Positions 2,070 to 57,853 of a stretch of 64,000 bases of DNA are shown here, piece after piece. Position 1 is the first letter of the stretch, and every line of letters starts with the position of its first letter. Where the stretch lies: the IMG/VR virus record IMGVR_UViG_2681813233_000007, one strand, 5' to 3'. The notes under the pieces are model-generated. The model searched no databases. It saw only the letters and a list, made by a program, of their open reading frames with translations, and was not told the DNA's origin. The translations under genes were made by a program, and so were the position numbers. Source of the DNA: a virus (taxonomy: Duplodnaviria > Heunggongvirae > Uroviricota > Caudoviricetes).

Positions 2070-4017
2070 CAATCCTTTACGAATTAATATTCAGTCTACT
2101 TTTGCTGATACGATCCCCGGCTATATGCCAAGTCGCTGGTCTTCAGAAGAATTAAGCGAAGATGACCTGATTTTTGAGGCGGCGACCTTAGAAGATATTG
2201 AGCTTGCCTATATGGGCAATGAAATTCTGGTTGTGTCTGACGAAGCTATGTTTGAGTCCATAACTACAACCAGAATTCGGTTAGCTCAAACAATGCGAGC
2301 TTTCGTCCGTGCGCTGAATCGTGGCCTGAATGGTACGAATATTATGGCAGGGACTGATGAAGCTGGGACCGATGAAAATGGACGTAATTGTATTGGTGGT
2401 GCGATTATCGGTCGTGTACGTCGGGTAGCTAATATCCCTGTTTTGACCGCGCAGATACCGCTTACTGACGGGCAGAGTACAAGCATAATTTTCCACTCTC
2501 CAACAGCTGACGGGGCAAAAATAAAGAGTAACGACGAGCTTGTTGCATTTCAGTTTTTACTTAATAAGCGTAACGTAACTCACGTTGTCGCCCCGATTGG
2601 TGGGAGAGATGTTTCTTTAAGCCAGGTATGCCAGGCGCTATCTAATTTGATTGAGCGTAACAGCGAAAAATTTAAGAAAGCAAAAGAGCGCCAGGACAAA
2701 ATGAAGGCAGATATTGAGAGTTATCTCAATGAAGCAGATAAACTGGCAGAAGAACGGTCAATAATGATTGATCAGGTGGACGTTGCGCAACGTGGGCTGA
2801 CTGAAAAGCGTGCTGCTCTTACGGAGATGCAAAAAAAACTTGATGCCCAGAAAGCTATCAATGAGGAATTACAAGCAAAACGCGATAAATTGTTGTCTGC
2901 TAAAGGTGAAAAAACGAAAGAACGAGCGTTTAGTGACCAGCTGCGACATGTAAAACATAATCTTGCCATTGACGGAAAAACAGTGCTTGATAATGGCGCT
3001 GAAGTTAATTATGTCACGTCCGGCAGTGACAATTTCGTTACGATAGTAGCACCTGAAGGTAAATTCAGTATTGATGCCAGTGCTGTCAAAGGAGGCAGTT
3101 TGGCAGATGCTGCAACCAAATTACTTAAAGCCTACCGAGAGCATAACGCAGATAAATATAAAGTTGATGTGTTACCAGGCCAGTTGGAAGACTCCGAACC
3201 ACCACAGACAGACCCCGAAACGAACCCAGTATTACAACCAGAGAGCCAAGATGTAGGTGAATACCACTATGCACTTCAATCTCGCCCGGCTGGTGTTGGT
3301 GCTGTTCCGGATGGAAATAAAGCCGTGCTTGATCGTCCTGACCAGGCTGATCAGTATTACGAATATGCTCGTCACGGTATCATTACGTATGACCGTAAAC
3401 TGACAGATGAAGAAGTCAGCCAGTACGAGTTGCTTTATCTTCCTGATGAAGATGAGCTGAAAGATTTTGCAGGCCAATTGGTTGCGTCCAGCATGTCGAA
3501 ACATATTGATGGCTATGTGGACCTGTTTGGCAGTGACCTGAAAACATTCAAGGCGCAAGTGAAAATTCTTTTCCGCAAAGCGTTTCCAAACGTGGCGTAT
3601 CCACTTAGTGATGGGGAGAACCTTTTCATTATGGACGTGTATAACGCCCTTCAAAATCATTCAAGCGAAGTAAAAACAGAGCATGTGGTTGAGCCAGAAT
3701 CACAACCACAACCACAACCACAACCACAACCACAACCACAACCAGCACCAGAACAGGAGTCGGAGCCAGAAGAAGCGGGTGAATCAGCAAGTGAAGCTGA
3801 TCAGGAAGCAGATAAAGCGCTGGAGTACCTGAAATCCGTGCCGGAGCAGTTTACATCCCGCGATCTGACGGTCATCAGTGCTGAACTTGATCATGTGCAG
3901 GAAGCAGCAAACGCTCTAATCAGTGCAGGTCGATACGACGAGAACGAAGCCACTGTGGGTGCAGCAGTTGACTACCTGATCAATATTCTGGCTGAAATTC
4001 AGCAGGGAGGTGTTTAA
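2059..4017 (+). CDS. Large head-associated protein with (PQ)n linker, DarA-like by size and context
   Basis: ~650 aa ORF with GGAGGA RBS; size and position match the P1 darA operon; no catalytic motif recognised. Confidence 0.45.
   Translation, partial: SMINNPLRINIQSTFADTIPGYMPSRWSSEELSEDDLIFEAATLEDIELAYMGNEILVVSDEAMFESITTTRIRLAQTMRAFVRALNRGLNGTNIMAGTDEAGTDENGRNCIGGAIIGRVRRVANIPVLTAQIPLTDGQSTSIIFHSPTADGAKIKSNDELVAFQFLLNKRNVTHVVAPIGGRDVSLSQVCQALSNLIERNSEKFKKAKERQDKMKADIESYLNEADKLAEERSIMIDQVDVAQRGLTEKRAALTEMQKKLDAQKAINEELQAKRDKLLSAKGEKTKERAFSDQLRHVKHNLAIDGKTVLDNGAEVNYVTSGSDNFVTIVAPEGKFSIDASAVKGGSLADAATKLLKAYREHNADKYKVDVLPGQLEDSEPPQTDPETNPVLQPESQDVGEYHYALQSRPAGVGAVPDGNKAVLDRPDQADQYYEYARHGIITYDRKLTDEEVSQYELLYLPDEDELKDFAGQLVASSMSKHIDGYVDLFGSDLKTFKAQVKILFRKAFPNVAYPLSDGENLFIMDVYNALQNHSSEVKTEHVVEPESQPQPQPQPQPQPQPAPEQESEPEEAGESASEADQEADKALEYLKSVPEQFTSRDLTVISAELDHVQEAANALISAGRYDENEATVGAAVDYLINILAEIQQGGV
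3701..3742 (+). repeat. (CACAAC)x7 hexanucleotide tandem repeat encoding a PQPQ linker
   Basis: Seven perfect CACAAC units inside the DarA-like ORF. Confidence 0.9.
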
Positions 4018-50628: not shown

Positions 50629-51081
50629 TTTAACTACTAAATAACCGGATTCTCCGCACGATGAAGAAAATAGATTTCACTTACTCTGCTGCCACAATCC
50701 AGCGACGTTTCAGTCTCATAAGGGAAGTGGAACTATCAAAAAACTGGTATCAAATTCTACTGGATGAAGAGTTTTCACTGATGGTTATAGCATAAAAATT
50801 GGCTATGCCGAATGACCGGCACAAGGTCATAGCCAGCCTGGATCTGGTGACAAACAGATACTGGGAATCCGAGGAACTACTTGAAGTTGGCTTGATACGC
50901 GAGATGATAGAACAGGCTGTTCCCCTCCACTTACAGCAACCATAATTGAAAGGTCTTAACGATAGTCTGCCACGAATAGTTACTTTCACTGCCTAAAGTT
51001 ATTTAATTGCATTACAAAGTGTAAATTAGTAACATTAGAATCTCACACAGCACTATAACTATATGTTTTTTATGTAAAAGG

Positions 51082-51441
51082 ATGATAATCGTGGCTACTA
51101 AAATTAAACTTGAAAACCCTCAAACTGGCGAATCAATCACCGGTTTTTATGGTTTTTCCTGGACTACATTCTTGTTTGGTGCTTTTCCAGCTTTGTTCAG
51201 GAAAGACTTTATAACTTTTATTGGGGTATTCGTAGTGATGCTGATACTGGCATTCCTCACAGCCGGAATTGGCCCGTGGATTGCCTCATTTATCTGGGCG
51301 TTCATGTATAATAAATATTTCACCGTAAATAAGATAAAACAAGGCTTCATTTTTGCTGGTTCTCACACAGAAAATGAGTTGGCTGCTAGCAAGCTAGGAT
51401 TGTCATTAAATCAAAACAACTGCAAAACTATTACCGAGTAA
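51082..51441 (+). CDS. Small integral membrane protein (DUF2628-like)
   Basis: NPQTGE...GFSWTTFLFGAF...LFRK pattern with two TM helices; start may be the GTG near 51091. Confidence 0.4.
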   Translation: MIIVATKIKLENPQTGESITGFYGFSWTTFLFGAFPALFRKDFITFIGVFVVMLILAFLTAGIGPWIASFIWAFMYNKYFTVNKIKQGFIFAGSHTENELAASKLGLSLNQNNCKTITE

Positions 51442-51481
51442 TAGCCAAAAAGCAGGCTTAATAGTAAGCCTGCTATGTCAA

Positions 51482-52366
51482 TCACGAATCTCTCTGACAA
51501 TTCAGAAACATAAACGCCCGCTTGTCTGTTAAATCCGTAACATAATACTCTCTCATGCCTGTAGGTTTTATTCTACGAGCATATACAAACTTATGAACTG
51601 GTTGTTTTTCCCCATAACTTACATCAGTCCTAAATTCATCAACCACGCTACCATCTTTTTCGACTTCCTTCCTCACCAGCTTATTTTCTAATGCTGGCTT
51701 TAATTCGTCCATGCCACTAAAAGCATCCTGGCCTGTACTATTGCCTCGATTTCCGCGCGGCAAATCCCAGGAGAAATAAGTGCCATAGTCAGTAATCACA
51801 CGATCCCAGACTCCGGTATCCCCCATATAGTTAGAGCGCTTTCCATTGTAGGTTACAGCCACTTTACAGGAGTACGTTTCTTCATTCCCTCCAGCCTTAG
51901 TCGCTGTGGTTGCAGGGATATTTTGGATAGATGCGCTTACGTCATCTTGCGTTAATTCCTCAACTGGAGCAAATTCATATATGGGTGTGCCGAGGCTATT
52001 TAAATATAACTTATATCTAACCCTAAGCGCACTTCCATCTGAGAATTCATACGTTCCCAGGCATTGGAGCTTATTTTTTTCTCTTATCTCATTGATCTGA
52101 TTATAAGCATCAATTACAGAGATTGCTTCCTGATCGTCCTTCAGCAGTTCATTATAATCATCAATTAACATCTGTCTGGTTTTAGGGGCATTGCAGTCAA
52201 TTTTGCTAAAATCATAAGCAAAGGCAAATGTGGGAACAGAGAGAGCAACAACAGTAGCAAGTATTGTTGAGGAACATCTTTTTCCATTTTTTATAAAAAA
52301 CATTTCATTAACTCCATACTTTACCATCTTAGCCGCGAGCGCGGTCCCTAAAACCATTAACTTCAC
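51482..52366 (-). CDS. Secreted/periplasmic protein (hypothetical), low-GC
   Basis: Signal-peptide-like N-terminus; AT-rich coding sequence; start uncertain. Confidence 0.45.
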   Translation of the reverse strand: MKLMVLGTALAAKMVKYGVNEMFFIKNGKRCSSTILATVVALSVPTFAFAYDFSKIDCNAPKTRQMLIDDYNELLKDDQEAISVIDAYNQINEIREKNKLQCLGTYEFSDGSALRVRYKLYLNSLGTPIYEFAPVEELTQDDVSASIQNIPATTATKAGGNEETYSCKVAVTYNGKRSNYMGDTGVWDRVITDYGTYFSWDLPRGNRGNSTGQDAFSGMDELKPALENKLVRKEVEKDGSVVDEFRTDVSYGEKQPVHKFVYARRIKPTGMREYYVTDLTDKRAFMFLNCQRDS

Positions 52367-52649
52367 TGCACCGTTCCTTCATGCAATCAAAATGACTTTT
52401 ATGTTATAAAAATAATCAGCCAAATCAACATGATTTAGGCCAAATTTCTGTCAAAAAATAAAATCCACAAAAAGTGGTTGACACTATTTTGGAAATCACA
52501 AACTGCACATAATCCATCGCGCTAACGGCTCCCGTTGAAGGTTCTTTTGACGATTAACTTTCAGCCGAAGCGCGGTAGGGAGTCATAACGCCAAAGCAGG
52601 CCGCCATGTGCGGCCTTTTTTTGTATCCGTCATCCGTGGAGGAAGGACA

Positions 52650-53303: not shown

Positions 53304-53631
53304 TCACATTAGTAGCTTTGTTAACTCCCTCAATACCAGGTAGAAGAGTAACAAAAATATTGACGCAAGTATTTGCGTGGTCAATGAGGCGTTCATAAAC
53401 AGATCAATAAGCTTTAACAATTCTAGAATAACATCCATGTCATTCACTCCGTTTAATTTTTAATCTAATGCCAGCAAATGAAGCTGGCCCCCGCATAAAG
53501 ATTAATGAAAGTCACTTGTCACCAGTGAGGGGATTTATGAACCACATCCCCCTGAACTGGTGGCCTGTCTGTTTCTCGCATTTCACACCCTGCATACAGT
53601 TTCCCCCAGGTTATGACTGAGAGGCTTTGTT

Positions 53632-53961
53632 ATGGGCTATAGCAGACTCGACGATAGGTACATTGAAGACGATATTTTTCGTGCGCTGTTTCACCAGGAA
53701 ATGATTAAGCGGGTATCGGAGTATCACTCTGATAATTTCCAGTACACGATAAAGATTGATGAAGTATATCGTTCAGACCTTGCAGCCTACAGGGCGTATG
53801 GCAATGCAGATTTGCGCTGGGTATTCCGGGTGCTGGTGGGCCATGAGTCAGAAATGGAAGAAATGCCCGCAGGGACCACGTTAACTCTTCCTGATGTGGC
53901 ATGGCTGAGGAACAAGATCCGTGATTACGCAAGCGCGAAACCGGAGATAGAAAATGCCTGA
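53632..53961 (+). CDS. Hypothetical protein
   Basis: 109 aa; stop overlaps the start of the next ORF. Confidence 0.4.
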   Translation: MGYSRLDDRYIEDDIFRALFHQEMIKRVSEYHSDNFQYTIKIDEVYRSDLAAYRAYGNADLRWVFRVLVGHESEMEEMPAGTTLTLPDVAWLRNKIRDYASAKPEIENA

Positions 53962-55147
53962 TTTCCTGAAAAACCAGGACGGGCGCTATATCACTGACGG
54001 CCTGTCCTCTAAGGACTTCACGCGTTTATTCGACCTTATCAGGAAAGAACAAACCCGTAAGCGCCGACAAGCTCACCGGACGCTGACGCCAGGTAGACTG
54101 AGGAACAAATCCGCCGAAGATATTCTCAAGTTAGGGAAGAAAAAAGGCGGCACGTTCTTCACGCGAGACGACCTGAAAGGTTTCGAAAAGCTACGGAGTA
54201 AAACGCGCGAAAAATATGACAGCAAGACGGCTGGCATCACATACGCCCAGCTGGTGGCATCCAGCCAGGCAATCGATATTAAGCGTGCAAATAACGCCGT
54301 GGATGACGGATCTGGTATCAAAAGAGCTACACCCGTATCTCTTCGCCACAATGTGATTAATATCCGCGTAGAAGCATCGGATATATCCGTCCACCAGCAC
54401 CATATCGTCCGGATACGCTTTGAAGAATGGGATCAGATGGTTGATGACATCGCAGAAGACGATAAATCAGCTCTCAAAATCACTAAATCACTGTGCGCCG
54501 GGCGAGTGTCTTTCGATTGTGACTGTGGTCGTCATCAATACTGGTATCGTTACATCGCCACTGCGGGTAACTTTGCCCTGGCACCGCCAAAAGAATACGC
54601 CTATCCAAAAGTTCGCAACCCGAAGCTGCAAGGCGTCGCCTGTAAACACGTGATCCACTCAATGACGCGGTTACAGTCCGCCAGTTGGCAAATGAGTATT
54701 GCTCGTGCGCTACAAAAGGCTGCAACGCAAATTGCATTTGGTGACGATCGCCGCCGTACAACTAAACACTTCTCAAAAGAAGACGAGAAGGAGTTTAATC
54801 GCAATCGTAGCAGTAAAACGAACGTTGAAGCCGCCAAACGCGAATGGAGGCTCTATCAGAAGCGCCAGGCAGCTTTAAGTACAAAACTGGCAAAGGACAA
54901 CGGCAAGATCGACAAACTACGTGACCAATTGACCAAGGCCAGAAAGTTGTCAGATGCACAGAAAAAACGGGCGGCAGCAAAAGAAGCGGCCTTGCAACGT
55001 GAGAAACAGAAAAACAAGGAGCTTCAGCAACGCCTTGCCGATCAGTTCGCACTGAAGAAGCAGGCGTTCATTGATGCGCTTGTCATGGCTGGAACACCAC
55101 CAGCACAAGCTGAAAAAATGTTCATGGAGTATGTAAAAAAAGCATAA
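53954..55147 (+). CDS. Hypothetical protein with SWIM-like zinc-finger pattern and basic coiled-coil C-terminus
   Basis: 397 aa; FDCDCGRH...VACKH (CxC...CxH); Lys/Ala/Gln-rich C-terminal 100 aa. Confidence 0.45.
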   Translation: MPDFLKNQDGRYITDGLSSKDFTRLFDLIRKEQTRKRRQAHRTLTPGRLRNKSAEDILKLGKKKGGTFFTRDDLKGFEKLRSKTREKYDSKTAGITYAQLVASSQAIDIKRANNAVDDGSGIKRATPVSLRHNVINIRVEASDISVHQHHIVRIRFEEWDQMVDDIAEDDKSALKITKSLCAGRVSFDCDCGRHQYWYRYIATAGNFALAPPKEYAYPKVRNPKLQGVACKHVIHSMTRLQSASWQMSIARALQKAATQIAFGDDRRRTTKHFSKEDEKEFNRNRSSKTNVEAAKREWRLYQKRQAALSTKLAKDNGKIDKLRDQLTKARKLSDAQKKRAAAKEAALQREKQKNKELQQRLADQFALKKQAFIDALVMAGTPPAQAEKMFMEYVKKA

Positions 55148-55180
55148 ACCACACATAGCCTAGTAGTTTATGCTGGGCTT

Positions 55181-55909
55181 TCATTTTTTTGAAAGATCAA
55201 CTCCAGTATTATCAAACAAACTGGAAATATCAGACACCAATTTATTAAAATGCTTGTCATCATTATAGAATGATGTGCTTTTTATAGCGACTATAAAATC
55301 ACATAAATCTTGCGGAGATTCAATGCTAACCCCCTTATTTTTATATAGTTCAATAATACTGCCAACATCAGTATGCAATAGTTTTATCGCGCCACAAATT
55401 TCTCGCTGTTTCGTAACCAAGTCATTAAGTTTATTTTCATTTTCATCTAAGATTTGTTTTGAATATTTAGCGTCATTGGTTGCTTGATTTAACTTTGTTT
55501 TCTTTCTTTGCAATTCTATTCTTTTATCATAATCAGCAACTTCATCTAAATATCTTATTTCAGTGTATAATTTACTTGTTAGCTTAGATATCGTCAGTGT
55601 GAGAATAGGAGCTAATACAGATGCAAATACTCCATAAATAAATGGGATTACAACGTGACAAACCCACGGGGGTACAATCCAATTATCAAAGAACGGTACA
55701 TTACCACCAACAAAAACAATAGATAATGTATATAGGATGTCGTCCTTTGACTTTAATATAATTAAAATATCCTTCCAGTTAAGGATTAGAAAAGAAATGA
55801 CAACATATGCAAAAACCTTGTTAAATATTTTATCTTTTATTATTTCAGAAAATGATTTTAGTTCTGTTTCATTTATAGACGAATTATCTTTAACTTTTTC
55901 TGACATCAT
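55181..55909 (-). CDS. Membrane protein with cytoplasmic coiled coil; candidate exclusion/abortive-infection effector
   Basis: 242 aa; 2-3 N-terminal TM helices then coiled coil; very AT-rich gene; last gene of the higB-higA-orf66 leftward string. Confidence 0.5.
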   Translation of the reverse strand: MMSEKVKDNSSINETELKSFSEIIKDKIFNKVFAYVVISFLILNWKDILIILKSKDDILYTLSIVFVGGNVPFFDNWIVPPWVCHVVIPFIYGVFASVLAPILTLTISKLTSKLYTEIRYLDEVADYDKRIELQRKKTKLNQATNDAKYSKQILDENENKLNDLVTKQREICGAIKLLHTDVGSIIELYKNKGVSIESPQDLCDFIVAIKSTSFYNDDKHFNKLVSDISSLFDNTGVDLSKK

Positions 55910-55930
55910 AGCTTATCCTGATTACTTTTA

Positions 55931-56131
55931 TTATGGATAGTTAAAAGATTCAACAGGTGATGGTGGCTGAATTGGGTAATGTTTCTTCTCGTACTCCTCA
56001 ATGAGAAGACTCATAACCTCAAAGAAATCACCTTCCGGAGTATTCATTTCCGGTTCGTTATCGAACATCGGTTCGACCGCACGCAGTGCGGCCTCATAAT
56101 CTTGTTCTGTACGGATAGGTTTAATGTTCAT
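55931..56131 (-). CDS. Orphan antitoxin-like small acidic protein
   Basis: 66 aa; MNIKPIRTEQDYEAALRAVEPMFD resembles the N-terminal segment of HTH-XRE antitoxins but has no HTH. Confidence 0.4.
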   Translation of the reverse strand: MNIKPIRTEQDYEAALRAVEPMFDNEPEMNTPEGDFFEVMSLLIEEYEKKHYPIQPPSPVESFNYP

Positions 56132-56187
56132 TAATTACAAAGGAAAGCCCACTTGCTAAGTGGGCTTTTTGTATGTGTTTTACTATA

Positions 56188-56526
56188 TCAGGCTGCTTTT
56201 TTATTCAGGTTCCGCTGAGAAATAAATTTTTCAGCAGTATTGATACGACTTAACTCTTCCTGAACGCGCATATCATTTTCGACTTCCCACAGATCTACTG
56301 CGGTCTGAAGATTAATCCAAAAATCTACAGAAGTATCGAATGCTTTTGCCAGGCGATATGCCATATCCATCGTTAGCTTACGATTATTATTAACAAGAGC
56401 ACTTACGGTGTTACGATGAACATGAAGTATTTCTGCTAACTCGTTGATCTTCAGCTCTAACGGCTCCAGGTATTCGTACAGCAGGATATCACCTACGGTC
56501 GTCGGTTTTCTGGTTGCCTGTTTCAT
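56188..56526 (-). CDS. higA: HigA antitoxin (HTH-XRE)
   Basis: VGDILLYEYLEPLELKINELAEILHVHRNTVSALVNN HTH motif; downstream of higB. Confidence 0.85.
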   Translation of the reverse strand: MKQATRKPTTVGDILLYEYLEPLELKINELAEILHVHRNTVSALVNNNRKLTMDMAYRLAKAFDTSVDFWINLQTAVDLWEVENDMRVQEELSRINTAEKFISQRNLNKKAA

Positions 56527-56596
56527 TTTTTGCCCTTACTAGCGTGCGTATTAAGTGGACTCTGGTCAGAACCCGGTCCGTAACCGGGTATCTGTT

Positions 56597-56899
56597 TTAG
56601 TATTTGTGAGGGTCGAGATACAAGTCCTCGGCCTTTCCGTTAACCCACTTAAAAATTAACCTATATTGCTTATTCACCCTTACTGATGAATAGCCATTTA
56701 GCTTCCCTGACAGTTCCTCATACCGATTACCTGGTGGTGATCTTAAATCCTTACAGGTAGTTGCGGCATTGATAATGTCCAACTTCCGTGACAATGTCAT
56801 ATGAATATCAGGAGGTATCTTTCTATGTGGTGTTGAAAATTCAAAAAAATCATCAAGCCACGCATCCCTGAAATCCTTTATGTTAATTTTTTTGGTCAT
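56597..56899 (-). CDS. higB: HigB toxin (RelE/ParE-fold killer protein)
   Basis: 100 aa; ...PPGNRYEELSGKLNGYSSVRVNKQYRLIFKW... typical of the HigB family; toxin-first order. Confidence 0.85.
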   Translation of the reverse strand: MTKKINIKDFRDAWLDDFFEFSTPHRKIPPDIHMTLSRKLDIINAATTCKDLRSPPGNRYEELSGKLNGYSSVRVNKQYRLIFKWVNGKAEDLYLDPHKY

Positions 56900-57049
56900 T
56901 AGTCATTTGATCCTCCGTGATGATTACCGAATGCCATAACTATAGCGCACCGTTGCACTGTGCGCAAGTGCATTTTATGAATTCCCCCTCCTTCATCCAA
57001 AATCACAATCTCCCGAAAATCTTCCTTTCGATACCTGACAGATCGACCT

Positions 57050-57853
57050 TTGAGGATGCTTATGGGCCGTTTTGACGAATGGTTTGCTGACGATGCAAAC
57101 CTGGCAAGTAAGGAGTCAGAACATGACAGCACGCAGAGAGAAACGCCAGCGCCGATTGAAGCGAATGCAGGAGGCGCGCCGGAACATGGCAATACCGGTT
57201 CGGATTCATTCAGCATTCTGGAAGAGCAACCCGCCGCCAAAGCTGATAGCCATGATAATTTTGCTGATAGCAACGGTGGCCTTACTCCGGATGCTGGCGA
57301 ATCAGATATAGCCATACTTCCATCTTCCCTGGCTGGCAGAGAACCGACTCCACAGTTAAAAGCACGCTATAACGGGCATAAAGCCTTTAACGACCAAATC
57401 CGCGCAGACTGGATGCTGATTATTGAATCCAGCCCAGACGCGTTTCAGGCTCTCTTATATCGACCAGATGTTGGCACATATGGGGTAGTCAGCGACGAAA
57501 CAGGAGAAGAGTCATTCACTGAACTGGATAACAACCAACGCGAACTGACTTACCAGGAACCTGAAATCGTTTATGTGCTGGATAACCCTGACGGGCGTGA
57601 CTCTTTCCATGCGATTGACGCAGACGGTGAGCAGGATGGCTTAACCGATGATGTTCTGATTCTGCGTATTGCAGCAAATAACGTCCCCGTCGGCTCAATT
57701 CTTGAATGGAATGAAGAGATGGTAAACGGCGTAGCGCGCCGCTGGTGGTACGTGCACCGTATTTTTAGCTACGGCACACAGCATGTTGGTTCGCTTTACT
57801 ACTGCATACCTGCCAGGAATTTTGATACGACTCAAAACGGAGTGATCGAATGA
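57050..57853 (+). CDS. Hypothetical virion-morphogenesis protein
   Basis: 267 aa; first of four translationally coupled ORFs ending in a spike-like protein. Confidence 0.4.
   Translation: MRMLMGRFDEWFADDANLASKESEHDSTQRETPAPIEANAGGAPEHGNTGSDSFSILEEQPAAKADSHDNFADSNGGLTPDAGESDIAILPSSLAGREPTPQLKARYNGHKAFNDQIRADWMLIIESSPDAFQALLYRPDVGTYGVVSDETGEESFTELDNNQRELTYQEPEIVYVLDNPDGRDSFHAIDADGEQDGLTDDVLILRIAANNVPVGSILEWNEEMVNGVARRWWYVHRIFSYGTQHVGSLYYCIPARNFDTTQNGVIE

What the first reader, a model, noticed from the sequence alone, without database searches (positions are those of the whole stretch)
55181..56899. Low-GC cargo string: higB-higA followed by an orphan antitoxin-like ORF and a membrane/coiled-coil protein
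Four leftward genes in a row. higBA is a canonical type II toxin-antitoxin pair. Immediately downstream is a 66-aa acidic protein resembling the neutralising N-terminus of HTH antitoxins but without an HTH, then after a 21-bp gap a 242-aa protein with N-terminal TM helices and a long coiled coil. The last gene is markedly more AT-rich than the surrounding phage genes, which points to recent acquisition. The arrangement suggests a membrane-acting abortive-infection or exclusion effector, possibly with its own small regulator.
Basis: partly seen in the sequence, partly recalled or inferred. Interest (0 to 1): 0.62.

Follow-up and report, generated by a model that had tools for sequence, protein, structure and literature searches.

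The report
Hypervariable phage-plasmid membrane gene beside higBA
A D6-like phage-plasmid carries, inside its tail-gene cluster, an ordinary HigB/HigA toxin-antitoxin pair, the broken-off front half of a second HigA antitoxin, and an undescribed AT-rich membrane/coiled-coil gene that differs greatly between otherwise near-identical phages, which makes it a good but untested candidate for phage exclusion or defence.

Summary
The window is a D6-like (P1-family) E. coli phage-plasmid. The cassette sits reverse-oriented between tail genes 25 and 7, which are adjacent in P1.

higB/higA are canonical (PF05015, TIGR02607). The 66-aa acidic ORF is not a dedicated regulator. It is the N-terminal ~61 residues of a K-12-type HigA antitoxin (D6 orf72, 119 aa) that lost its HTH through a ~200-bp deletion. 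Its cognate PF09907 HigB, promoter/operator and ribosome-binding site are also gone. In relatives the same gene is independently frameshifted or split by IS3, while the downstream gene stays intact.

The 242-aa gene (X) belongs to a small undescribed Enterobacterales family (43 cluster representatives among 1.84 billion) with no Pfam, NCBIfam or PADLOC match and no informative fold match. It has the lowest GC in the window (29%). It is present in most D6-like plasmids but only 36–58% identical between elements whose flanks are 95–100% identical. The membrane region is conserved; the coiled coil and C-terminal domain vary. Distant homologs are solitary reverse-oriented genes in P2-like and lambdoid prophages and in defence-type islands.

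Best reading: an autonomous prophage conflict protein (exclusion or abortive infection). That function is inferred, not shown.

The parts
56597..56899 (-). higB, a RelE-fold toxin of the Rts1/PF05015 type (100 aa)
   Evidence: PF05015 at 4.4e-35, matching profile positions 1-91 of 91; phrog_3066 'toxin of TA system' at 3.7e-37. It is 100% identical to D6 orf70.
56188..56526 (-). higA, the cognate HTH antitoxin (112 aa)
   Evidence: TIGR02607 antidote_HigA at 7.9e-30 (score 102.5, cutoff 47.7); PF01381 HTH_3 at 7e-11. It is 100% identical to D6 orf71.
56144..56168 (-). Terminator-like hairpin (11-bp stem, interrupted T-run) between higA and the 66-aa ORF
   Evidence: The hairpin ends 12 nt before the ATG of the 66-aa ORF, and no Shine-Dalgarno sequence follows it.
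55931..56131 (-). Truncated orphan K-12-type higA (66 aa): residues 1-~61 of D6 orf72, followed by a short diverged tail and a stop codon. The HTH is lost.
   Evidence: The DNA is near-identical to D6 orf72 up to codon ~59-61, after which about 200 bp are missing. Full-length orf72 matches PDB 5IFG/5YCL, E. coli and Shigella HigA, at 8e-8. PADLOC PD-Lambda-2_B N-terminus at 2.5e-16; phrog_10398 at 1.6e-42.
55910..55957 (-). Recombination/deletion junction. High identity to D6 ends here, and the HTH half of orf72, the orf72 terminator hairpin and most of the spacer are absent. An AGGA ribosome-binding site precedes X.
   Evidence: Alignments; sequence. The exact junction is present in 70 of the 112 plasmid records that carry orf72-N DNA.
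55181..55909 (-). X: a 242-aa AT-rich membrane/coiled-coil protein from an undescribed hypervariable family (phrog_8191)
   Evidence: phrog_8191 (unknown function) at 1.5e-121. No Pfam, NCBIfam or PADLOC match. It is 36-58% identical between elements whose flanks are 95-100% identical. The exhaustive search found 43 cluster representatives.
55550..55852 (-). X residues 20-120: the conserved membrane region, with hydrophobic segments at 32-52 and 82-108 and near-invariant D26 K27 F29 N30 K31 N44 W45 S54 D57 T61 L62 S63 H85 P89 G93 A96 S97 P101 T104
   Evidence: Hydropathy; alignments. Mean pairwise identity is 65%, against 33% for the coil and 40% for the C-terminal domain.
55184..55549 (-). 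X residues 121-242: the variable coiled coil (121-190) and a small helical C-terminal domain (191-242)
   Evidence: AF2 model helix 81-192, with pLDDT 86-93 for residues 121-170. Mean pairwise identity 33% and 40%. Only generic coiled-coil fold matches.
55157..55179 (+). Terminator-like hairpin ending the rightward gene 25 transcript, abutting the stop codon of X. It marks the left boundary of the variable block.
   Evidence: The hairpin differs from D6's by changes on both arms (not checked pair by pair), and near-identity resumes immediately beyond it.
53954..55147 (+). Left flank: homolog of P1 tail gene 25
   Evidence: phrog_1722 at 4e-197; D6 annotation 'similar to P1 gene 25'. In P1 it is followed 3 bp later by gene 7.
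57050..57853 (+). Right flank: homolog of P1 tail gene 7
   Evidence: phrog_1906 at 1.6e-116; D6 annotation 'similar to P1 gene 7'.

Best explanation
The locus is an accessory-gene island inserted, in reverse orientation, into the tail operon of a D6-like phage-plasmid. It has three layers.

(1) A functional Rts1-type higBA addiction module (shown by homology).

(2) A decaying orphan antitoxin. The ancestral island was PF09907-higB, K-12-type higA (orf72), then X. In the D6 and window lineage the PF09907 toxin, together with its promoter/operator and the ribosome-binding site of orf72, was replaced by the PF05015 higBA plus a terminator. This left orf72 without a partner. In the window's lineage, an allele swap of X combined with a ~200-bp deletion then removed the HTH of orf72, leaving the 66-aa stub. 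The sequence comparisons show this; the order of events is inferred.

(3) X is an autonomous inner-membrane protein, probably expressed from the prophage. Its conserved N-terminal membrane module would anchor it or act on the membrane. Its hypervariable coiled coil and C-terminal domain would set specificity. The most likely role is phage-phage or MGE conflict: superinfection exclusion or abortive infection against incoming phages. This role is inferred from hypervariability, the moron-like position and the genomic neighbourhoods. No activity has been demonstrated.
For: Identity of the element: 100% identical to E. coli ~90-kb plasmids and 91.7% to phage D6. P1 has genes 25 and 7 adjacent.

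higBA.

Orphan antitoxin:
- D6 orf72 is 119 aa with an HTH. The window is identical to it up to codon ~59-61 and then lacks ~200 bp.
- orf72 resembles K-12 HigA, 5IFG, at 8e-8.
- Homologs at 67-85% identity pair with a HigB-family toxin on other plasmids, without X.
- PF09907 HigB-orf72-X occupies the same hotspot in L008, L010, L016 and L021.
- The SD and operators are present only in the PF09907 context, and a terminator lies just upstream of the stub.
- There is an independent frameshift at codon ~52 in the P0012 lineage and an IS3 insertion in NZ_CP134379, both with X intact.
- 70 plasmids carry the truncated junction, always with allele-A X.

X autonomous and conflict-like:
- X shares 36-58% identity while flanks share 95-100%.
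- The same 243-aa X protein occurs behind two different toxin modules.
- The membrane part is conserved and the coil and C-terminal domain are variable.
- X is present in ~102 plasmids against ~115 with D6-type gene 25.
- Distant homologs are solitary and reverse-oriented: in a P2-like tail cluster, in a lambdoid prophage, beside a WYL regulator and GmrSD in an integrase island, and in a methylase/H-NS island.
- Low GC is family-wide.
Against: - No homology or fold link ties X to any known defence, exclusion or toxin family.
- Guilt by association is weak for single genes.
- The structural model is only moderate (pLDDT 68, pTM 0.29), and the topology is unresolved: only 82-108 is an unambiguous TM segment.
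- No promoter for X was identified in the window, so expression in the lysogen is assumed.
- The higB-higA-X block moved as one unit into Klebsiella plasmids and the synteny survives in a divergent P1-like lineage. This leaves room for a functional link between X and the K-12-type HigBA.
- Within allele A, omega is ~0.9 on only 13 substitutions. That is compatible with relaxed constraint as well as with diversifying selection.
- Both independent disruptions of orf72 keep the N-terminal ~52-61 residues, so a residual function of the stub is not excluded.
Confidence: 0.5

Rival explanations
1. Tripartite system. X is the third component of a K-12-type HigB-HigA-X module, analogous in logic to toxin-antitoxin-chaperone systems or to PD-lambda-2. 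X would be a membrane-anchored sensor or modulator that controls HigA stability or HigB release on infection. The window carries a rewired or degenerate version of this module.
For: - PF09907 HigB-orf72-X is the arrangement in several D6-like elements and in a divergent P1-like lineage where all three genes have diverged together.
- Exactly this three-gene block, from ~190 bp upstream of higB to the end of X, is shared at 96% identity between a phage-plasmid and Klebsiella IncFIB plasmids.
- Three-component HigB/HigA-based defence systems are known: PD-lambda-2 (PMC9519451) and HigBAC/TAC (PMC11980606).
Against: - X persists intact after the PF09907 toxin is replaced and after orf72 is truncated, frameshifted or IS-split.
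- orf72 does not co-vary with X within the D6 lineage.
- A terminator hairpin separates higA from X in full-length modules.
- Distant X homologs have no TA neighbours.
- About 1,000 plasmids carry orf72-type HigA, and the three higBA loci inspected on other plasmids lack X.
Confidence: 0.15
2. Toxin plus mini-antitoxin. X is a membrane toxin and the 66-aa acidic peptide (or full-length orf72) is its neutraliser or regulator.
For: - The two genes are adjacent and on the same strand with a 21-bp gap.
- The peptide is acidic and antitoxin-derived.
- Two independent disruptions of orf72 both preserve the N-terminal ~52-61 residues.
Against: - An IS3 element splits the 66-aa ORF while X stays intact.
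- The stub has no SD and a terminator lies 12 nt upstream.
- orf72 is 95-100% conserved across X alleles of 37-58% identity.
- The closest orf72 homologs are antitoxins of HigB, not of X.
- X homologs elsewhere are solitary.
- Any disruption of a gene necessarily leaves an N-terminal fragment, so retention of the N-terminus is not informative.
Confidence: 0.07
3. X has a housekeeping role for the phage-plasmid, such as a lysis accessory, a tail or baseplate assembly factor, or a membrane tether for plasmid replication or partition, rather than a conflict role.
For: - X is embedded in tail or baseplate gene clusters in both the D6-like and the P2-like elements.
- It is nearly universal in D6-like plasmids.
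Against: - X is transcribed against the late operon.
- It is absent from P1, where genes 25 and 7 abut.
- Its divergence is extreme while all structural neighbours are ~99% conserved.
- Homologs occur in non-phage islands and on a chromosome outside any prophage.
- The Klebsiella plasmid copies are frequently IS-truncated.
Confidence: 0.1
4. X is a decaying or functionless selfish passenger, with no current function, carried along in a recombination hotspot.
For: - Omega is ~0.9 within allele A.
- No known domain was found.
- Expression has not been shown.
Against: - The ORF is intact at ~242-245 aa across alleles that are only 36-58% identical.
- A set of near-invariant residues lies in the membrane region, and the family extends to 20-30% identity with the same architecture. 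This requires long-term purifying selection on the fold.
Confidence: 0.08

Closest known systems
Rts1/P. vulgaris-type HigB-HigA (PF05015 + TIGR02607), as annotated in phage D6 (orf70/orf71)
   Same: Domain matches are well above the curated cut-offs. Gene order is toxin-first. Both proteins are 100% identical to the D6 proteins. The literature treats this pair as a post-segregational killing system of D6-like plasmid prophages (PMC6799933).
   Different: Nothing notable. This part is already known.
E. coli K-12 HigA (YgjM; PDB 5IFG, 6IRP) with PF09907 HigB
   Same: Full-length orf72 aligns end to end with K-12 HigA (8e-8). Its 67-85% homologs on other plasmids, and the near-identical orf72 copies in L008/L010/L016, sit directly after a PF09907/HigB-family toxin. 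The window's 66 aa correspond to the N-terminal helices. For EcHigA, α1-α4 mediate dimerisation and α3-α6 contact the toxin (PMC7340258).
   Different: The window copy lacks the C-terminal HTH, the cognate toxin, the operator/promoter and a ribosome-binding site. It is a remnant, not a working antitoxin gene.
PD-lambda-2 (Vassallo et al. 2022): HigB-like A, HigA-like HTH-peptidase B, and P4-antitoxin-like C
   Same: The 66-aa ORF matches the first 65 positions of the PD-Lambda-2_B profile (2.5e-16). Both loci are HigB/HigA-derived multi-gene modules on mobile elements.
   Different: There is no HTH or ImmA/IrrE peptidase after the matched region. No protein in the cassette matches PD-Lambda-2_A or _C. 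X is unrelated to component C.
Toxin-antitoxin-chaperone (HigBAC/CmdTAC) systems
   Same: The ancestral arrangement is HigB, HigA, then a third gene, and TAC systems act in abortive infection.
   Different: The third gene here is a membrane/coiled-coil protein, not a SecB-like chaperone. orf72 shows no obvious C-terminal chaperone-addiction extension. X is separated from higA by a terminator hairpin and survives without the TA pair.
Prophage-encoded membrane exclusion or abortive-infection proteins (for example T4 Imm, P22 SieA/SieB, lambda RexB, P1 Sim region). This comparison rests on my general knowledge of these proteins, not on a test run here.
   Same: X is a small inner-membrane protein encoded by a temperate phage. 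It is moron-like (reverse strand, low GC, own terminator), variable between close relatives, and not needed by the reference phage P1.
   Different: No sequence, profile or fold similarity to any of them was detected. The long coiled coil plus C-terminal helical domain is not a feature of those proteins.

Membership tests
HigB toxin, PF05015 (Rts1 type) | Full-length match to the HigB-like_toxin profile above the gathering score | tested here: met
   120.5 bits against a cutoff of 27, covering profile positions 1-91 of 91.
HigB/HigA type II TA pair | Toxin gene directly upstream of an HTH antitoxin gene on the same strand | tested here: met
   higB 56597-56899 and higA 56188-56526, separated by a 70-bp spacer. 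higA matches TIGR02607 at 102.5 bits against a cutoff of 47.7.
HigB/HigA type II TA pair | Toxicity of HigB neutralised by HigA; ribosome-dependent mRNA cleavage | not testable with these tools
   Requires expression and cleavage assays.
K-12-type HigA antitoxin (YgjM/5IFG family) | N-terminal helical region homologous to the EcHigA dimerisation and toxin-contact helices | tested here: met
   Window residues 1-~61 are 95-97% identical to full-length orf72 proteins. Full-length orf72 aligns to 5IFG residues 24-132.
K-12-type HigA antitoxin (YgjM/5IFG family) | C-terminal Xre/Cro-type HTH DNA-binding domain | tested here: not met
   The ORF stops after 66 aa. The ~200 bp that encode the HTH in D6 are absent, and no HTH Pfam hit was found.
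K-12-type HigA antitoxin (YgjM/5IFG family) | Cognate PF09907 HigB encoded immediately upstream, with an autoregulated promoter | tested here: not met
   In the window the upstream neighbour is the PF05015-pair higA followed by a terminator. PF09907 HigB is present in relatives L008, L010, L016 and L021.
PD-lambda-2 defence system | Component B: N-terminal region + Xre HTH + ImmA/IrrE peptidase (~400 aa) | tested here: not met
   Only profile positions 1-65 of 402 are matched by a 66-aa protein. Domain description from PMC9519451.
PD-lambda-2 defence system | Components A (HigB-like) and C (P4 antitoxin-like) matching the PADLOC models | tested here: not met
   No PADLOC hit for higB or X at E<=0.1.
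Toxin-antitoxin-chaperone (TAC) systems | Third gene encodes a SecB-like chaperone | tested here: not met
   X has no Pfam, NCBIfam or PADLOC match. Its model is all-helical with TM segments.
Any catalogued anti-phage defence protein (PADLOC-DB v2) | Profile match of X or of its distant homolog | tested here: not met
   No family matched X or P0049.
Holin or other lysis membrane protein | Small TM protein in a lysis cassette with endolysin or spanin genes | tested here: not met
   The neighbours are tail genes and TA genes. In the P2-like prophage the holin (PF04550) is a separate gene ~3 kb away. No holin profile hit.
phrog_8191 (unknown function) | Full-length profile match | tested here: met
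   1.5e-121, positions 1-242 of 242. The family carries no functional annotation.

The most novel reading that the evidence does not exclude
X founds a new family of hypervariable inner-membrane proteins that temperate phages (P1/D6-like, P2-like, lambdoid) and defence islands use for allele-specific exclusion or abortive infection. In its ancestral form it works as the membrane-bound third component of a K-12-type HigB-HigA-X module, coupling an event at the membrane (for example incoming phage DNA or proteins) to release of the HigB RNase.
Probability: 0.12. Interest if true: 0.75.

Novelty: new variant of a known kind. Interest (0 to 1): 0.45.

Why it matters
D6-like and P1-like phage-plasmids are common in E. 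coli and Salmonella and spread resistance genes. What controls their competition with other phages and with each other is poorly known.

This locus offers a compact, testable candidate. It is a single 729-bp gene that is present in most D6-like elements, yet it has been swapped between very different alleles while the rest of the genome stays ~99% identical. If it proves to be an exclusion or defence determinant, it would add a new protein family, now annotated only as 'hypothetical', to prophage-encoded immunity. It would also define a defence hotspot inside the P1-family tail operon.

The locus is also a clean natural example of toxin-antitoxin module replacement that leaves an orphan antitoxin to decay. 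That is useful for annotation, because most RefSeq records leave the 66-aa stub unannotated.

Tried and rejected
- **Profile searches of X.** Pfam, NCBIfam, PADLOC and PHROGs gave only phrog_8191 (unknown function) and coiled-coil noise. Scanning 19 family members individually against Pfam at E<=1 gave no family hit by more than one member.
- **Structure prediction.** The first AF2 run, with a 3-sequence alignment, was poor (pLDDT 50). A 20-sequence alignment gave pLDDT 68 and pTM 0.29.
- **Representative genomes.** The broad family alignment was too divergent for the search for related loci. The narrower one found a single locus among the GTDB representatives.
- **Context look-ups.** Several metagenomic contigs were too short to be informative.
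- **Neighbours of solitary X homologs.** They show no recognisable partner family. The two 149-aa convergent neighbours are unrelated to each other.
- **Literature.** The D6 genome paper (PMC5800970) is not held. The phage-plasmid literature searched does not discuss this locus beyond naming higA-higB.
- **'Low GC means recent acquisition'.** Rejected as stated, because low GC is family-wide.
- **'The Klebsiella IncFIB context is an independent second context'.** Rejected. It is a captured copy of the L021-type phage-plasmid block.
- **Promoter scan.** It gave no more hits than shuffled controls, and none in a useful position.
Full report
**1. Observation**

All four leftward ORFs exist exactly as described:
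- higB, 56597-56899, 100 aa
- higA, 56188-56526, 112 aa
- a 66-aa ORF, 55931-56131
- a 242-aa ORF, 55181-55909, which I call X, 21 bp further on

higB matches PF05015 at 4.4e-35. higA matches TIGR02607 at 7.9e-30. The 66-aa product is acidic, with pI 4.26. X has two hydrophobic segments, at residues 32-52 and 82-108, and a predicted uninterrupted helix over residues 81-192. Its GC content is 29.2% against 47.6% for the window. That is about 5 SD below the mean and the lowest value in the 64 kb.

**2. What the element is**

The 2.5-kb region is 100% identical to ~90-kb non-mobilisable E. coli plasmids and 91.7% identical to phage D6. The flanking genes are homologs of P1 tail genes 26/25 on one side and 7/24/6 on the other. 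In P1 itself, genes 25 and 7 are 3 bp apart in one late operon. The cassette is therefore a reverse-oriented accessory island specific to the D6 lineage and some related P1-like lineages.

**3. The 66-aa ORF**

In D6 the corresponding gene, orf72, encodes 119 aa with a C-terminal HTH. The window DNA is near-identical to D6 up to codon ~59-61. A few diverged codons and a stop follow, and ~200 bp are missing: the HTH half, the hairpin after orf72 and most of the spacer.

Full-length orf72 belongs to the E. coli K-12 HigA family (PDB 5IFG/5YCL, 8e-8). For that family, helices α1-α4 mediate dimerisation and α3-α6 contact HigB (PMC7340258). Its match to PD-Lambda-2_B covers only the shared N-terminal region. 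In that system, B is a HigA-like HTH-peptidase fusion partnered with a HigB-like protein (PMC9519451).

On other plasmids, orf72 homologs at 67-85% identity directly follow a HigB-family toxin and have no X. Within D6-like elements the same hotspot also exists as PF09907-HigB, then orf72, then X (L008, L010, L016). In that context orf72 has a GGAG ribosome-binding site inside higB, and palindromic operators lie upstream of higB. In the window and D6 context these are replaced by the PF05015 higBA and a terminator hairpin that ends 12 nt before the ATG, with no Shine-Dalgarno sequence.

orf72 has been inactivated independently twice more, both times with X intact:
- by a +1 frameshift at codon ~52 in the P0012 lineage
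- by an IS3 insertion in NZ_CP134379

The truncated junction occurs in 70 of the 112 plasmids that carry orf72-N DNA. It is linked to allele-A X in every record that has it (70 records with the junction, 71 with allele-A X).

My conclusion is that the 66-aa ORF is a remnant of an orphaned antitoxin, not a purpose-built regulator of X. A residual activity cannot be excluded. One possibility is dimerisation or partial binding of a related HigB from a competing plasmid.

**4. The 242-aa gene X**

X matches only phrog_8191, a family of unknown function. It has no Pfam, NCBIfam or PADLOC match, even when 19 family members are scanned individually. A word-seeded search of 5.8 billion proteins finds only E. 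coli and Salmonella relatives. An exhaustive HMMER search of 1.84 billion cluster representatives finds 43 at E<=0.001, and every member with a named source organism is from Enterobacterales apart from one partial metagenome-bin record labelled Enterococcus faecalis; several are unnamed metagenomic sequences. Only one of 185,579 representative genomes carries a homolog.

The key result is the identity table. Between elements whose genes 26, 25, 7 and 24, higBA and orf72 are 95-100% identical, X is only 37-58% identical. The left boundary of the variable block is the terminator just past the stop codon of X. In the window, the right boundary lies inside orf72. The same 243-aa X protein (P0024) is found behind either toxin module.

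Among the full-length alleles, the membrane region (residues 20-120) averages 65% pairwise identity and has a set of near-invariant residues. The coiled coil averages 33% and the C-terminal domain 40%. X is present in about 102 non-Klebsiella plasmids, against about 115 plasmids with D6-type gene 25. Within allele A, omega is ~0.9, but this rests on only 13 substitutions.

The best structural model is moderate (pLDDT 68, pTM 0.29) and all-helical. Fold searches give only generic coiled-coil hits.

**5. Contexts elsewhere**

- A divergent P1-like element (L021, flanking genes 68-83% identical) has PF09907 HigB, a 139-aa HigA and a 245-aa X in the same hotspot.
- That three-gene block is 96% identical to a segment of Klebsiella IncFIB plasmids, where X is often cut by IS903B.
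- More distant homologs (16-30% identity, same architecture) are solitary. One is reverse-oriented between gpV and gpS in a P2-like Klebsiella prophage.
- One is reverse-oriented in the early region of a lambdoid prophage.
- One is in an integrase-bearing island next to a WYL/WCX regulator, a 1090-aa unknown protein and GmrSD.
- One is in a methylase/DUF4942/H-NS island.
- One is alone on an Enterobacter chromosome.

All of these homologs are 4-22 GC points below their surroundings.

**6. Mechanism**

Shown by the comparisons:
- a working-looking higBA pair
- an orphaned, truncated second antitoxin
- an autonomous, conserved-architecture but hypervariable membrane protein gene that behaves as a swappable cassette

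Inferred: X is expressed from the prophage, inserts in the inner membrane through its conserved N-terminal module, and uses its variable coiled coil and C-terminal domain to recognise a variable target. The likely outcome is exclusion or abortive infection of incoming phages or competing elements. I put this at about 0.5.

The rivals, with their probabilities:
- a tripartite HigB-HigA-X system, 0.15
- X as a toxin with the stub as its antitoxin, 0.07
- a housekeeping, assembly or lysis role, 0.10
- a functionless passenger, 0.08

**7. Comparison with known systems**

The higBA pair is already known and already annotated in D6. The stub fails two defining tests for a K-12-type HigA: it has no HTH and no cognate toxin. 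It also fails the PD-lambda-2 and TAC membership tests. X belongs to no described family. In kind, it most resembles prophage moron membrane proteins used for exclusion or abortive infection, but no homology supports actual membership.

**8. Verdict**

The TA part is ordinary. The stub is an instructive pseudogene. X is a real, uncharacterised, hypervariable phage-plasmid gene and a reasonable candidate for experimental testing. Interest 0.45.

Noticed in passing
window 50900-52500: A second low-GC stretch (0.36-0.39). It holds a 119-aa multi-TM ORF (51082-51441, +) and a 294-aa ORF with a signal-peptide-like N-terminus (51482-52366, -), next to what D6 annotates as a simB-like superimmunity gene. 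It may be another exclusion-type moron region.
   Followed up: no
window 53954-57853: The reverse-oriented cassette splits what in P1 is a single late operon, 26-25-7-24-6 (genes 25 and 7 are 3 bp apart in P1). Gene 7 and the genes downstream of it must therefore have a new promoter, or be read through the antisense cassette, in D6-like phages. The 138-aa ORF at 56899-57315 (-), which overlaps the start of gene 7, looks spurious.
   Followed up: partly
L006 4894-5465; L013 6157-6728; L015 6157-6734: Some D6-like relatives carry another PF05015-type higB plus HTH antitoxin pair at a second site, between gene 26 and mat. The corresponding site in the window (53304-53631) holds only 47-50-aa ORFs.
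   Followed up: no
L013 3823-4311; L014 3832-4311: The P0012 lineage has an extra gene with a YjaZ domain (PF27200) inserted directly downstream of X, so this hotspot accumulates further cargo.
   Followed up: no
L036 (NZ_CP134379) 2754-3982: An IS3-family element is inserted inside the 66-aa ORF while X and higBA remain intact. In Klebsiella IncFIB plasmids the X homolog is frequently truncated by IS903B.
   Followed up: yes
L010 2190-2260: The PF09907-type higB promoter region contains palindromes (TCCCAGCATGGGA and GTCCCATATTGGGAC) typical of HigA operators. They are absent from the window, where the PF05015 higBA has replaced this segment.
   Followed up: partly
window 55931-56131 and RefSeq plasmid records (L033-L035): In the three RefSeq records inspected, PGAP leaves the 66-aa stub unannotated, while some GenBank submitter annotations call it 'hypothetical protein'. 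D6 orf72 is annotated either 'HigA family antitoxin' or 'transcriptional regulator', depending on the record.
   Followed up: yes
window 55590-55785 (X residues 43-106): Eight of the ten amino-acid differences between the window's X and the common 95%-identical allele fall in the otherwise conserved membrane region (L43F, F66S, F74I, P80S, C84Y, I91V, I102V, T106K). This may be a small recombination patch or local adaptive change.
   Followed up: partly
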